Shown one piece after another: positions 41,495-44,393 of a DNA stretch of 64,000 nt. Within the stretch, counting starts at the first letter, position 1. Every line of letters begins with the position of its first letter. A program made the translations under genes and the position numbers. The stretch is from a virus: IMG/VR virus record IMGVR_UViG_3300050343_000218; one strand, given 5' to 3'. The notes under the pieces are model-generated. The model saw only the letters and a list, made by a program, of their open reading frames with translations, was not told the DNA's origin and searched no databases.

Positions 41495-41694
41495 CAGGTT
41501 TCGTAAAGATTATATTCCATCATCATAGCAAACATTCGTTTCTTTAGAATGTCCATCCAAATTTGTTCTTCGTATGGTCTAGCGGGAGAACCTGGCCACA
41601 TCCTTATGGAGTAGTCTAGATGATCATACATCATACGAACTTCATCAATACCTAAGGTCATCGTACAATGCCACTCGGTATTTTCCTCATTCAT
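41494..41694 (-). CDS. Small hypothetical protein (66 aa)
   Basis: WPGSPARPYEEQ motif; coupled to both neighbours. Confidence 0.7.
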   Translation of the reverse strand: MNEENTEWHCTMTLGIDEVRMMYDHLDYSIRMWPGSPARPYEEQIWMDILKKRMFAMMMEYNLYET

Positions 41695-42148
41695 CGAGAG
41701 TACCGTGTGCTCTACGAATCTCTCTCAGTGCTTCAAGGTTCATATCCTTGGTGCCACCATCGTATGCGTGAGCATAACCTTCCGTGATCATTTGTTCGTT
41801 GAGTGACACTGTGTCATCCCCGATGTATAACCAACCCAGAAGACGCCCATACTTGCCAGTGCCACCGACAAGTTCAGTCCTAACAGACAACTCATCATCA
41901 CCAGCCAACGTACCTTCCAGTTTTTCTTTGAGCCAGTTGGTTGCGTCGATTCCAAGAGCTTTCTCCTCTAAGTTTTTCGTCCTTTTCTCTGGCGTATCAA
42001 CGCCTGCAACTCTAACTCTTTCTTTCTTGTATAGATCAAACCCGAGGTCGATAGTAACGTCAATAGTATCACCATCAAGGACACGATTGATCTCCGTCAC
42101 TCGGAAGTTGTAGCAGCTCTTCCTGCTTGGTGGTGTCATTGCTCCCAT
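41687..42148 (-). CDS. Staphylococcal/thermonuclease-family nuclease
   Basis: DGDT, RVAGVDTPE, GKYGRLLG, NEQMITEGYA. Confidence 0.88.
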   Translation of the reverse strand: MGAMTPPSRKSCYNFRVTEINRVLDGDTIDVTIDLGFDLYKKERVRVAGVDTPEKRTKNLEEKALGIDATNWLKEKLEGTLAGDDELSVRTELVGGTGKYGRLLGWLYIGDDTVSLNEQMITEGYAHAYDGGTKDMNLEALREIRRAHGTLDE

Positions 42149-42284
42149 CTTTTAATTCTGTAAATGATATCCTTAATATGTATATGACATAACCTAGTGC
42201 CAATCCGACAGCAATGATTACCAAGATAATCACTGACCATACAGGATCGCCTGGATTATCTAAGGGACGCAATAGTAAATTCAT
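42075..42284 (-). CDS. Small single-pass membrane protein (69 aa)
   Basis: DPVWSVIILVIIAVGLALGYVIYIL hydrophobic helix; ATGA overlap upstream. Confidence 0.65.
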   Translation of the reverse strand: MNLLLRPLDNPGDPVWSVIILVIIAVGLALGYVIYILRISFTELKDGSNDTTKQEELLQLPSDGDQSCP

Positions 42285-42358
42285 TTCTTAACTGGTAGAG
42301 TTAACTCCATACCAATAGTAAGTAGTAGTATAAAAACAAAAACAAACAATGTACTCAT
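42281..42358 (-). CDS. Membrane microprotein (25 aa; not in ORF track)
   Basis: MSTLFVFVFILLLTIGMELTLPVKK; starts 3 nt after the upstream stop and its stop overlaps the next ATG. Confidence 0.55.
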   Translation of the reverse strand: MSTLFVFVFILLLTIGMELTLPVKK

Positions 42359-42717: not shown

Positions 42718-42901
42718 ATTCCTCTTCCTCATCGTCAACATCTGCATATGCATTCGCCACGAAGGGTCCTCGTTTTCGTAGAGGTTCTTTTCCGACATAA
42801 GAGTTTTCTGTATTAACAGCAGATACCCATACGGCAAGTTTCATTACTATAAAAATTAAAACCAGCGGCGTAAAACAACCGATTAAAATTACTGGATTCA
42901 T
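42692..42901 (-). CDS. Small single-pass membrane protein (69 aa; start revised to 42901)
   Basis: MNPVILIGCFTPLVLIFIVMKLAVWV; TAATG overlap. Confidence 0.65.
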   Translation of the reverse strand: MNPVILIGCFTPLVLIFIVMKLAVWVSAVNTENSYVGKEPLRKRGPFVANAYADVDDEEEEYGDRTDYR

Positions 42902-43023
42902 TAATGTTTCCTCGTAAAAGGTTCCCAGTGCTCCCAACCATATTTATGAACGAGATCCATTCCTATAATAGGAACTACTATTAAGATCATTGATAGGAGA
43001 CCCAAACTCCACTGATGCTCCAT
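42901..43023 (-). CDS. Membrane microprotein (40 aa; not in ORF track)
   Basis: MEHQWSLGLLSMILIVVPIIGMDLVHKYGWEHWEPFTRKH; its stop overlaps the next ATG. Confidence 0.6.
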   Translation of the reverse strand: MEHQWSLGLLSMILIVVPIIGMDLVHKYGWEHWEPFTRKH

Positions 43024-43030
43024 CGTATAT

Positions 43031-43129
43031 CTAATAAGGATAAGCATTACCCAACCCCCATACTACAAATAGTGCTATAAAACTGAGTAGAAAAAATCCT
43101 GTTGCTCTTACGTTAGAAACTTTATTCAT
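43031..43129 (-). CDS. ndhQ: NdhQ-like NDH-1 small subunit candidate (32 aa; not in ORF track; symbol tentative)
   Basis: MNKVSNVRATGFFLLSFIALFVVWGLGNAYPY aligns without gaps to the NdhQ C-terminal helix as I recall it (LILGFIAGLIWWALHTAYA); TAATG coupling. Confidence 0.55.
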   Translation of the reverse strand: MNKVSNVRATGFFLLSFIALFVVWGLGNAYPY

Positions 43130-43293
43130 TACTCAATAAACTCCCGCCAAGGATCTGAATTGTGTAGGCACGATCTAGGATGAACCCACTCGTTATTTAA
43201 TTGATCAAGCTTAAGCTTTAATAACAAATTTTCTTGTTTCAAGATATTAATTTGTTCGTTTAAAATATCAATTGATAACTTAGATAGATTCAT
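43129..43293 (-). CDS. Small coiled-coil protein (54 aa; not in ORF track)
   Basis: MNLSKLSIDILNEQINILKQENLLLKLKLDQLNNEWVHPRSCLH...; overlaps both neighbours. Confidence 0.6.
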   Translation of the reverse strand: MNLSKLSIDILNEQINILKQENLLLKLKLDQLNNEWVHPRSCLHNSDPWREFIE

Positions 43294-43480
43294 TCCTGGT
43301 TTTCCAAAGTTCTAAAAAATACCGATCGACGTTATACAAATCACTTTGAGGTGGTTGCTCTTCGATCTTAGACCATTCGTTACAAAGATCTCTCATCTCA
43401 AGTGTAATATGATCTGGTCTAAACATCCTACCAAATGAGGACATAGCAAAAGCAAAACGCATTTTAATGCGCTGTTCCAT
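43280..43480 (-). CDS. Small hypothetical protein (start 43480 or 43462, not 43588)
   Basis: MRFAFAMSSFGRMF...VDRYFLELWK; the upstream part of the track ORF is occupied by ndhP in another frame. Confidence 0.6.
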   Translation of the reverse strand: MEQRIKMRFAFAMSSFGRMFRPDHITLEMRDLCNEWSKIEEQPPQSDLYNVDRYFLELWKTRNESI

Positions 43481-43595
43481 TTCCTGAGTAGGCGTCGGTT
43501 TCATAATAGTTATTCTCACCTCTTCTGTGCCCGAAATAAATGGTGGCACATATAAAGGGTAGTGATCCGAAAAGTAGGACATCAGCAAAAGTCAT
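43464..43595 (-). CDS. ndhP: NdhP, small subunit of cyanobacterial NDH-1L (43 aa; not in ORF track)
   Basis: MTFADVLLFGSLPFICATIYFGHRRGENNYYETDAYSGNGTAH: one TM helix, then FG...Y(D/E)TDxYxGNGxAH, the NdhP C-terminal signature; ATGA overlap with the gnd-like stop. Confidence 0.85.
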   Translation of the reverse strand: MTFADVLLFGSLPFICATIYFGHRRGENNYYETDAYSGNGTAH

Positions 43596-44062
43596 TCAAC
43601 GTTCCCTGGTGATAGTGATTGAAAAATTCTAGAGCAGGCATCGACAGCATAGGGTGCGCCATATACTCCAGAGAAGATATATGAGATGCCAAGCTTAGAG
43701 CAATACTTCTCAAGCTCCTGACATTTTGGTATGTCTTTGTTACTGTGATCAATAATTATATCACCTTCTTCAAGTAAAGGTAGCAACTCATCAAGTGTGT
43801 CTTCTACTTTTACTTCTGGGAGTGTGATCTGAAAAATACCAGGAACTTTACCAGCACTAGTAAATTTCTTAGTATCAGATTTAACTGCTTGAACAAGATA
43901 CTCCAGTGAAGTTACACACCCACTAAGATGTCCTGCTTCATATTGTCCACAGGCATTTTCGTAGTTAGTACTACTGTAACCCCAGACTTCAATTCCTTTC
44001 TCAAGCATACGGCGAGCCATACCTTCACCAGTACGACCCAACCCAATCATTCCAACTTTCAT
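43592..44062 (-). CDS. gnd: Truncated 6-phosphogluconate dehydrogenase (Rossmann domain only, 156 aa)
   Basis: MKVGMIGLGRTGEGMARR...GDIIIDH...SGVYG...IFQSLSPG; lacks the catalytic helical domain. Confidence 0.75.
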   Translation of the reverse strand: MKVGMIGLGRTGEGMARRMLEKGIEVWGYSSTNYENACGQYEAGHLSGCVTSLEYLVQAVKSDTKKFTSAGKVPGIFQITLPEVKVEDTLDELLPLLEEGDIIIDHSNKDIPKCQELEKYCSKLGISYIFSGVYGAPYAVDACSRIFQSLSPGNVE

Positions 44063-44069
44063 CTTTACC

Positions 44070-44393
44070 TCAATTTACGTGAATTACTCCAGTCATACCT
44101 GCGCCCTGATGAGGACCGCAGAAGAAATTATAGTCCCCTTTGTCTGCAAATACAACGTCTTGTGATTCTCCTGGAGCAAAAAGTAATGCTTCTCTAGAAA
44201 GATCAGGACGTGCCTCAACAATAATATTGTGGGGAGGTAGAGCTTCGTTGACAAAGTGAAGCGTGTCTCCTGCAGAGATTGTAATATCGTTAGGTTCAAA
44301 TACCAAGTTACCGCCAGCTCCCATCACTACATCTACTGCCCAAGCAGGAGACGCCAAAAATAGTACTGTGATGCAAGCAAATAGAAATTTCAT
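44070..44393 (-). CDS. petE: Plastocyanin
   Basis: Signal peptide ending AWA; LVFEP, PPHN, FFCGPHQGAGM with all four Cu ligands. Confidence 0.95.
   Translation of the reverse strand: MKFLFACITVLFLASPAWAVDVVMGAGGNLVFEPNDITISAGDTLHFVNEALPPHNIIVEARPDLSREALLFAPGESQDVVFADKGDYNFFCGPHQGAGMTGVIHVN

What the first reader, a model, noticed from the sequence alone, without database searches (positions are those of the whole stretch)
43031..43129. 32-aa NdhQ-like peptide missed by the ORF track
FLLSFIALFVVWGLGNAY aligns without gaps to the NdhQ helix as I recall it from Thermosynechococcus (LILGFIAGLIWWALHTAY), giving 8 of 18 identities including FIA, W, L and AY. It lacks the N-terminal NRGIMKF-type segment, so it may be a minimal or altered subunit, or a competitor of the host one. 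The reference sequence is from memory and needs checking.
Basis: partly seen in the sequence, partly recalled or inferred. Interest (0 to 1): 0.8.

Follow-up and report, generated by a model that had tools for sequence, protein, structure and literature searches.

The report
Cyanophage copy of NDH-1 subunit NdhQ
This marine T4-like cyanophage carries a real, normally unannotated 32-codon gene that is a shortened copy of its host's NdhQ, and it lies 335 bases from a phage NdhP gene, so the phage encodes both one-helix proteins that hold the host's photosynthetic NDH-1L energy complex together.

Summary

- **Conserved family.** A degenerate DNA pattern for its C-terminal motif found 87 IMG/VR viral contigs. 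In every one the motif sits in frame in a 27-35 codon ORF that stops 0-3 codons after AYP.
- **Link to host NdhQ.** A profile of 38 phage peptides matches an 18-member family from marine Synechococcus and Prochlorococcus chromosomes at hhalign probability 98.4%, E 8.5e-15. Some sources name that family NdhQ.
- **Link to the solved structure.** The host family's best PDB matches are the NdhQ chains of Thermosynechococcus NDH-1L (E 0.0045). A bridging cyanobacterial sequence matches that chain at E 4e-15. The phage profile's only PDB match is the same chain, at a weak E of 3.2.
- **How the phage form differs.** It lacks the acidic N-terminal segment and has a short neutral or basic tail instead.
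- **Linkage to NdhP.** A 43-aa NdhP gene lies 335 nt upstream. NdhQ and NdhP are linked in 63 of the 87 loci, in several gene orders.
- **Rejected or absent.** PetN is not the match. No Pfam, NCBIfam or PHROG family covers the peptide.
- **Novelty.** No paper I could search reports a phage NdhQ. This scan has noted the same thing before on other DNA.
- **Function.** Stabilising host NDH-1L during infection is an inference, not shown here.

The parts
43031..43129 (-). ndhQ-like gene: 32 codons plus a TAG stop
   Evidence: ORF. The identical peptide occurs on 28 metagenomic contigs (P0003). Family of 38 distinct peptides. hhalign to host NdhQ gives 98.4% probability, E 8.5e-15.
43127..43131 (-). 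TAATG: the stop of the upstream 54-aa ORF overlaps the ndhQ start by one base, a likely translational coupling
   Evidence: Read directly from the sequence. Coupling is inferred.
43052..43111 (-). Predicted single transmembrane helix, residues 7-26
   Evidence: The 20-residue cores of the phage family average Kyte-Doolittle 2.0. The segment aligns to the helix region of host NdhQ and of PDB chain Q.
43037..43069 (-). Conserved C-terminal motif FVVWGLGNAYP, shared with picocyanobacterial NdhQ
   Evidence: F, V, W, G, L, A, Y and P are invariant in the 38 phage peptides, although the retrieval pattern forced most of these. W, G, L, A and Y are invariant in the 18 host peptides, which were retrieved without the pattern. 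Synonymous codons vary at these positions: Leu uses 6 codons, Val 4, Gly 4. The Leu position allowed Phe in the pattern, but only Leu was found.
43464..43595 (-). ndhP, 43 aa, on the same strand 335 nt upstream of ndhQ
   Evidence: phmmer to PDB 6khi_P gives E 1.4e-4, collinear to the C-terminus. A homologue sits on the same strand near ndhQ in 63 of 87 IMG/VR loci.
43129..43293 (-). 54-aa coiled-coil protein directly upstream, with its stop overlapping the ndhQ start
   Evidence: Matches phrog_2352. Found beside ndhQ in 30 of 87 loci. Fused in frame to the NdhQ-like peptide in the metagenomic protein P0001.
42901..43023 (-). 40-aa one-helix peptide directly downstream, phage-only, function unknown
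   Evidence: phrog_1184, E 4.7e-22. On the same strand near ndhP or ndhQ in 53 of 87 loci. Homologues found only on contigs up to about 215 kb, none named.
43592..44062 (-). Short Gnd, 156 aa, dinucleotide-binding domain only; part of the same cassette
   Evidence: phrog_3646 positions 1-155 of 158, E 7e-96. NCBIfam gnd models match only their N-terminal ~125-130 positions.
44070..44393 (-). petE (plastocyanin), the first known gene of the same-strand cassette
   Evidence: Annotated as plastocyanin under the DNA matches in related phages.

Best explanation
The ORF is a phage auxiliary metabolic gene: a shortened NdhQ taken from marine picocyanobacteria. NdhQ is one of two one-helix subunits that sit on opposite sides of NdhD1 in the distal NdhD1/NdhF1 module of cyanobacterial NDH-1L. 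The other is NdhP. Their loss lets NDH-1L fall apart into NDH-1M.

The phage peptide keeps the transmembrane helix and the C-terminal W-G-L-x-N-A-Y-P motif of the host protein. The host's acidic N-terminal segment of about 10 residues is replaced by a tail of 2-9 neutral or basic residues.

It is made from the petE / short-gnd / ndhP cassette, probably by translational coupling to the upstream gene. I infer that it inserts into the thylakoid membrane and takes the NdhQ position on host NdhD1/NdhF1, while phage NdhP takes the opposite face. This would keep NDH-1L assembled after host gene expression is shut off. [quoted passage not shown]

Shown here: the gene is real and conserved, it is homologous to host NdhQ, it lacks the N-terminal segment, and it is linked to ndhP. 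Inferred: membrane insertion, binding at the NdhQ site, and a stabilising rather than an inhibiting effect.
For: - **Real gene.** All 87 IMG/VR pattern hits are intact short ORFs that end 0-3 codons after AYP. A profile search of 1.84 billion proteins gave 36 hits at E<=1e-3.
- **Homology to host NdhQ.** hhalign of the phage profile against the picocyanobacterial profile gives 98.4%, E 8.5e-15, 30 columns, 50% identity. The window peptide is 62% identical over 21 aa to the protein that NCBI names NdhQ in Synechococcus WH 8101. The phage profile itself retrieves host-type peptides.
- **The host family is NdhQ.** Its profile's top PDB hits are 6khi_Q and 6l7o_Q, over their full length (E 0.0045 and 0.022). 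The bridge P0186 links both sides (E 0.04; E 4e-15). The phage profile matches P0186 at E 3e-5.
- **Only PDB hit.** The phage profile's single PDB hit is NdhQ.
- **Negative controls.** Two other one-helix peptides of the window score below 1%.
- **Linkage to NdhP.** NdhP is in the window. ndhQ and ndhP lie on the same strand in 63 of 87 loci, in at least four gene orders.
- **Known role of NdhP and NdhQ.** They sandwich NdhD, contact NdhF, lipids and beta-carotene, and each deletion disassembles part of NDH-1L (PMC6992706, PMC7021789, PMC11794437).
- **Precedent.** Phage ndhP, ndhI and ndhD are already described (PMC12801897, PMC10452541).
- **RNA libraries.** Contigs from two RNA libraries of one study cover the gene at 100% identity. 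This is weak support only.
Against: - Direct similarity to the structurally solved NdhQ is weak (E 3.2). The case rests on intermediate sequences.
- The N-terminal segment present in every cellular NdhQ seen here is absent. The net charge of the N-tail changes from -3..-1 in hosts to 0..+3 in phages. This could alter membrane orientation or contacts.
- The N-terminal half of the helix is nearly invariant in hosts but poorly conserved in phages. Pooled pN/pS there is about 0.8-0.9. Only the C-terminal half is clearly under the host-like constraint.
- No binding, expression or physiological data exist. The RNA-library contigs do not prove transcription.
Confidence: 0.6

Rival explanations
1. It is a true NdhQ homologue that acts as a competitor or modifier. 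The truncated, charge-reversed peptide would displace host NdhQ and weaken or change NDH-1L. For example, it might free NDH-1M for other NDH-1 forms, or change the coupling between NdhD1/F1 and NdhB.
For: The N-terminal segment is absent and the N-tail charge is reversed in all 38 phage forms. The N-terminal half of the helix is relaxed compared with hosts.
Against: It is linked to a full-length, host-like NdhP that aligns to the end of the PDB chain. It sits among genes thought to sustain electron flow (petE, gnd). Phages generally carry working copies of photosynthesis genes. There is no direct evidence for inhibition.
Confidence: 0.15
2. It descends from NdhQ but now works elsewhere. It could be a partner of phage-only membrane peptides of the cassette, such as the 40-aa phrog_1184 peptide or the 54-aa coiled-coil protein, or of another thylakoid complex.
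For: The 40-aa peptide accompanies it in 53 of 87 loci and the coiled-coil protein in 30 of 87. One metagenomic variant fuses the coiled-coil protein to it in frame (P0001). Only the C-terminal half keeps the host-like pattern.
Against: The retained motif is exactly the one that is most conserved in host NdhQ. The strongest and most varied linkage is to ndhP, which binds the same host subunit.
Confidence: 0.12
3. The resemblance to NdhQ is chance or convergence between hydrophobic helices. The peptide would then be an unrelated phage membrane peptide, or a PetN-like one.
For: The single peptide gives no PDB, Pfam, NCBIfam or PHROG hit. Two family members touch PetN at E 0.014 or weaker. The sequences are very short.
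Against: hhalign E 8.5e-15 to host NdhQ, with an identical 9-11 residue C-terminal motif at the same distance from the stop. Control helices score below 1%. PetN is missed by 36 of 38 members.
Confidence: 0.05

Closest known systems
NdhQ of marine and freshwater picocyanobacteria (37-51 aa as called; for example P0104 of Synechococcus sp. WH 8101 and P0072 of Prochlorococcus marinus MIT 9303/MIT 1342)
   Same: One transmembrane helix followed by F-[VI]-V-W-G-L-x-N-A-Y-P close to the C-terminus. The window peptide is 62% identical to P0104 over 21 residues. Profile-profile E is 8.5e-15.
   Different: The host proteins have a conserved acidic N-terminal segment and a nearly invariant N-terminal helix half. 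The phage form has neither: its tail is short and neutral or basic, and that helix half is variable.
NdhQ of Thermosynechococcus NDH-1L (chain Q of PDB 6KHI, 6L7O, 6NBY, 6HUM)
   Same: Same length class, one helix, and a W-x-L-x-x-A-Y signature one residue from the C-terminus in the full-length chains 6khi_Q and 6l7o_Q. It is the only PDB hit of the phage profile.
   Different: Direct similarity is weak (E 3.2). The roughly 20-residue N-terminal segment of the structural protein has no phage counterpart.
Cyanophage NdhP (reported for P-TIM68 and S-SCSM2R; PMC12801897)
   Same: A phage-borne copy of the other NDH-1L-specific one-helix subunit. It is present in this window and linked to ndhQ in 63 of 87 loci.
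   Different: A different protein family, as hhalign finds no relation. The phage NdhP is full length and host-like, whereas the phage NdhQ is shortened. Phage NdhP is published; I found no paper on a phage NdhQ.
PetN (PF03742), small subunit of cytochrome b6f
   Same: About 29 aa, one helix, and a V-V-W-G stretch near the C-terminus. Two of 38 family members touch the model.
   Different: Best E is 0.014, and the window peptide has no match. The A-Y-P ending is not part of that match. The NdhQ relation is stronger by many orders of magnitude.

Membership tests
NdhQ (NDH-1L subunit Q) | Statistically supported sequence relationship to accepted NdhQ proteins | tested here: met
   Against picocyanobacterial NdhQ: hhalign 98.4%, E 8.5e-15. 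Against Kastovskya NdhQ P0186: E 3e-5, 73%. P0186 to PDB NdhQ: E 4e-15. The direct match to the PDB chain is only E 3.2.
NdhQ (NDH-1L subunit Q) | Single transmembrane helix in a peptide of about 30-50 residues | tested here: met
   The peptide is 32 aa. The 20-residue cores of the phage family average Kyte-Doolittle 2.0, against 2.4 for the hosts.
NdhQ (NDH-1L subunit Q) | C-terminal W-[GA]-L-x-x-A-Y signature within a few residues of the end | tested here: met
   Present in all 38 phage peptides, where the retrieval pattern forced it. Also present in 18 of 18 host peptides and in the full-length PDB chains.
NdhQ (NDH-1L subunit Q) | N-terminal extramembrane segment ahead of the helix, acidic in picocyanobacteria and longer in other cyanobacteria | tested here: not met
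   Phage N-tails are 2-9 residues with net charge 0 to +3. Host tails are at least 11 residues with net charge -3 to -1. The corresponding PDB residues 8-21 have no phage counterpart.
NdhQ (NDH-1L subunit Q) | Physical association with NdhD1/NdhF1 in NDH-1L, and loss of NDH-1L stability when absent | not testable with these tools
   This needs purification from infected cells, complementation, or multimer modelling. Only the literature on host NdhQ is available.
Cyanophage auxiliary metabolic genes for NDH-1 | Host-derived gene carried in a phage genome among other photosynthesis and carbon-metabolism genes | tested here: met
   The window is a T4-like cyanomyovirus. The gene lies in a petE / gnd / ndhP cassette. 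The nearest cellular relatives are on Synechococcus and Prochlorococcus chromosomes of 2-2.7 Mb.
PetN (PF03742) | Match to the Pfam model above its 20.3-bit cut-off | tested here: not met
   The window peptide has no match at E<=10. Only 2 of 38 family members match, with a best E of 0.014.

The most novel reading that the evidence does not exclude
Cyanophages do not merely resupply NdhQ. They encode a redesigned distal clamp for NDH-1L. It would consist of an N-terminally truncated, charge-reversed NdhQ and a host-like NdhP. It may also include the phage-only 40-aa peptide and the coiled-coil protein, which is fused to NdhQ in one variant. Together these would lock NdhD1/NdhF1 onto NDH-1M and bias the infected cell towards cyclic electron flow and respiration at the expense of the CO2-uptake forms of NDH-1.
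Probability: 0.15. Interest if true: 0.8.

Novelty: new variant of a known kind. Interest (0 to 1): 0.55.

Why it matters
NdhP and NdhQ are the two subunits specific to NDH-1L, the form of the complex that carries cyclic electron flow and respiration. Phage NdhP was known, though described as uncommon in cyanophage genomes.

A widespread but unannotated phage NdhQ is linked to NdhP in several gene orders. This means many marine and other cyanomyoviruses carry the complete NDH-1L-specific pair. It strengthens the view that phages actively maintain or remodel cyclic electron flow during infection.

The natural truncation also defines a minimal NdhQ, consisting of the helix plus the C-terminal motif. 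That gives a direct handle on which part of NdhQ is needed to stabilise NDH-1L.

The case also shows that genes of about 30 codons are missed systematically. Every GenBank phage record checked lacks a CDS for this gene.

Tried and rejected
**Searches that found nothing**
- Single-peptide searches of Pfam, NCBIfam, PHROGs and the PDB gave nothing.
- phmmer of one host peptide (P0029) against the PDB also gave nothing. Only profiles and the bridging sequence reached the structural NdhQ.
- tblastn of a third family representative found no named phage.

- The search for homologous proteins and the search for related loci refuse queries under 40 aa.
- No whole genome is held for the window.
- The Nowaczyk 2011 paper is not held.

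**A wasted scan**
- I spent the single genome-contig scan on petE to get a cyanobacterial handle. It returned only a cyanophage contig binned into a Verrucomicrobiales MAG. No six-frame search of cyanobacterial genomes was therefore possible.

**Weak or uninformative results**
- The PetN reading is rejected.
- pN/pS on the 16 codons not constrained by the search pattern was about 0.8-0.9. This does not by itself show purifying selection there.
- The RNA-library runs are contigs only and cannot show transcription, strand or ends. One such contig of a related strain skips 43007-43420, but what lies between is unknown.
- I found no text stating the membrane orientation of NdhQ. The meaning of the charge reversal is therefore open.
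- I did not fold the peptide. A lone 32-residue helix would match any helix.

Full report
**Setting.** The window is a T4-like cyanomyovirus. A 3.5-kb stretch around the finding matches S-RIM44, Syn1, S-CAM8 and ACG-2014b at about 85% DNA identity. The matches lie over petE, gnd, an endonuclease gene and hypothetical genes.

On the minus strand a tightly packed cassette runs in this order:
- petE, 44393..44070
- a 156-aa Gnd reduced to its dinucleotide-binding domain, 44062..43592
- a 43-aa ORF, 43595..43464
- a conserved 102-aa protein, 43588..43280, in another frame
- a 54-aa coiled-coil protein, 43293..43129
- the finding, 43129..43031
- a 40-aa one-helix peptide, 43023..42901
- several more small proteins
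- the endonuclease gene, 42148..41687

**The observation.** The ORF exists as described. It has 32 codons, and its ATG overlaps the TAA of the upstream gene by one base (TAATG). The nearest in-frame stop is two codons upstream of the ATG, so this is the only possible start.

The 8-of-18 identity count is correct.

**Is it a gene?** tblastn found unannotated syntenic ORFs in S-MbCM7/ACG-2014h and ACG-2014f.

A degenerate DNA pattern for F-V-[VT..]-W-G-L-x-[NH]-A-Y-P found 87 IMG/VR contigs. By my own estimate from the pattern's information content, fewer than one chance match is expected. In all 87 the motif is in frame in a short ORF with an ATG 26-36 codons before the stop. Every ORF ends 0-3 codons after AYP. 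Many have a clear Shine-Dalgarno sequence.

Codon use supports selection on the protein. The motif positions use all synonymous codons. At the Leu position the pattern would have allowed Phe, but only Leu codons occur, six different ones.

A pattern-free profile search of 1.84 billion proteins returned 36 cluster representatives at E<=1e-3. Most are 29-37 aa and nearly all carry the same ending. The identical peptide (P0003) was seen on 28 contigs of up to 186 kb.

The pooled pN/pS of 0.8-0.9 in the unconstrained N-terminal 16 codons shows that only hydrophobicity is kept there.

**What is it?** No Pfam, NCBIfam or PHROG model covers it.

Among the 36 profile hits, several longer proteins have high-GC-looking extensions and a distinct N-terminus. 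Following one of them (P0029) led to a family of 37-51 aa peptides. They are encoded on Prochlorococcus and marine Synechococcus chromosomes, on contigs of 2.0-2.7 Mb. UniRef names the MIT 9303/MIT 1342 protein NdhQ, and NCBI names the WH 8101 protein NdhQ.

I checked that name independently:
- The 18-member host profile has the NdhQ chains of T. elongatus NDH-1L as its two best PDB hits, over the full length including the N-terminal G-x-DS region (E 0.0045 and 0.022).
- The host profile reaches a 46-aa protein of the filamentous cyanobacterium Kastovskya adunca (P0186) at E 0.04 in 5.8 billion sequences.
- P0186 matches PDB chain Q at E 4e-15.

The phage profile then ties in as follows:
- It matches the host profile at hhalign probability 98.4%, E 8.5e-15, 50% identity over 30 columns.
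- It matches P0186 at E 3e-5.
- Its single hit in the whole PDB at E<=10 is NdhQ (E 3.2).
- The window peptide is 62% identical over 21 residues to WH 8101 NdhQ.

As negative controls, the NdhP and the 40-aa peptide of the same window score 0.4% and 0.8% against the phage profile. PetN is touched by 2 of 38 members at E>=0.014 and not by the window's peptide.

**How the phage form differs.**
- Host peptides have at least 11 residues before the helix, with net charge -3 to -1. Phage peptides have 2-9 residues, with net charge 0 to +3.
- The N-terminal half of the helix is nearly invariant in hosts and variable in phages.
- The shared, invariant part is the C-terminal half of the helix plus W-G-L-x-N-A-Y-P.

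The phage gene is thus a minimal NdhQ. I could not find the membrane orientation of NdhQ in any text. Whether the charge change matters is therefore open.

**Context that bears on function.** The 43-aa ORF at 43595..43464 is NdhP. phmmer gives E 1.4e-4 to 6khi_P, collinear to the last residue.

Across the 87 IMG/VR loci, an NdhP homologue lies on the same strand as ndhQ in 63, in at least four gene orders:
- ndhP, 102-aa gene, coiled-coil gene, ndhQ, as in this window
- ndhQ directly followed by ndhP
- ndhQ, gnd, ndhP
- ndhQ, another gene, gnd, then ndhP further on

Several of the other 24 loci are cut by contig ends close to the gene.

In the host, NdhP and NdhQ sandwich NdhD1, contact NdhF1, lipids and beta-carotene, and occur only in NDH-1L. 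Deleting either disassembles about half of NDH-1L into NDH-1M, and deleting both disassembles nearly all of it (PMC6992706, PMC7021789, PMC11794437). Phage ndhP, ndhI and ndhD are already described as auxiliary genes (PMC12801897, PMC10452541).

The most economical reading is that the phage supplies both NDH-1L-specific clamps, to keep the complex assembled and cyclic electron flow running during infection. That step is inference.

**Named phages and annotation.** tblastn with two family representatives finds the gene in these phages:
- ACG-2014e, f, h, i and j
- S-CAM4 and S-CAM9
- S-RIM12
- Sf-CH3 and Sf-FP1
- DSL-LC03
- S-SCSM2R

In the four records I inspected there is no CDS for it. In S-SCSM2R it lies in the gap before talC. 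In S-CAM4 only the end of a neighbouring CDS touches it. In S-MbCM7 and ACG-2014f nothing is annotated under the match. The 6.4-kb region of S-RIM44 around gnd that I fetched has no copy.

**Expression.** Contigs assembled from two oligo-dT RNA libraries of one marine study cover 42873..43494 and 42757..43337 at 100% identity apart from one gap. DNA carry-over cannot be excluded, so this is weak support only.

**Literature and earlier notes.** A full-text search for NdhQ together with phage found one paper, and it holds the word NdhQ only in a reference title.

Earlier notes of this scan report phage NdhQ and NdhP on other DNA, in at least 13 genomes. They also flag the NdhP ORF in this window. 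I tested those claims here rather than relying on them.

Noticed in passing
window 43464-43595 (-): A 43-aa NdhP gene is hidden under the longer ORF 43280..43588, which is in another frame and matches phrog_593. NdhP matches PDB chain 6khi_P at E 1.4e-4. The downstream protein probably starts at a later Met, as annotated in S-MbCM7.
   Followed up: partly
window 42901-43023 (-): A 40-aa one-helix peptide (phrog_1184) ending in a conserved H-K-x-G-W-E-H-W-E-P-F stretch. It travels with ndhP or ndhQ in 53 of 87 viral loci. Homologues were found only on phage-sized contigs, none named and none from a host. It could be a further, phage-only partner of the NDH-1L module.
   Followed up: partly
window 43592-44062 (-): Gnd is reduced to its 156-aa dinucleotide-binding domain. 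It matches the 158-position phrog_3646 end to end, so this is a conserved short form and not a break.
   Followed up: partly
protein P0001 (metagenomic, 74 aa); window 43129-43293 (-): In one metagenomic variant the 54-aa coiled-coil protein upstream is fused in frame to the NdhQ-like peptide. This hints that the two act together.
   Followed up: no
L091 (NYWG01000069.1, 35.7 kb): A contig carrying a plastocyanin 86% identical to the phage's is filed in a Verrucomicrobiales MAG. It is almost certainly a cyanophage contig binned in error.
   Followed up: no
window 42281-42358 (-) and 42075-42284 (-): A 25-aa hydrophobic ORF is conserved in S-MbCM7 and unannotated there. A 69-aa one-helix protein (phrog_814) has a weak PetM-like stretch (E 0.04). 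These are further membrane microproteins of the cassette.
   Followed up: no
window 43007-43420: A contig from an RNA library, belonging to a related strain with 10 differences in 134 bases, joins 43006 to 43421. Some relatives may therefore lack the coiled-coil gene and ndhQ, or carry something else there.
   Followed up: no
L092 2501-2584 (S-SCSM2R, PQ898602.1 182753-182836): S-SCSM2R was published as carrying ndhD and ndhP. It also has an unannotated NdhQ-like ORF in the gap just before talC.
   Followed up: partly
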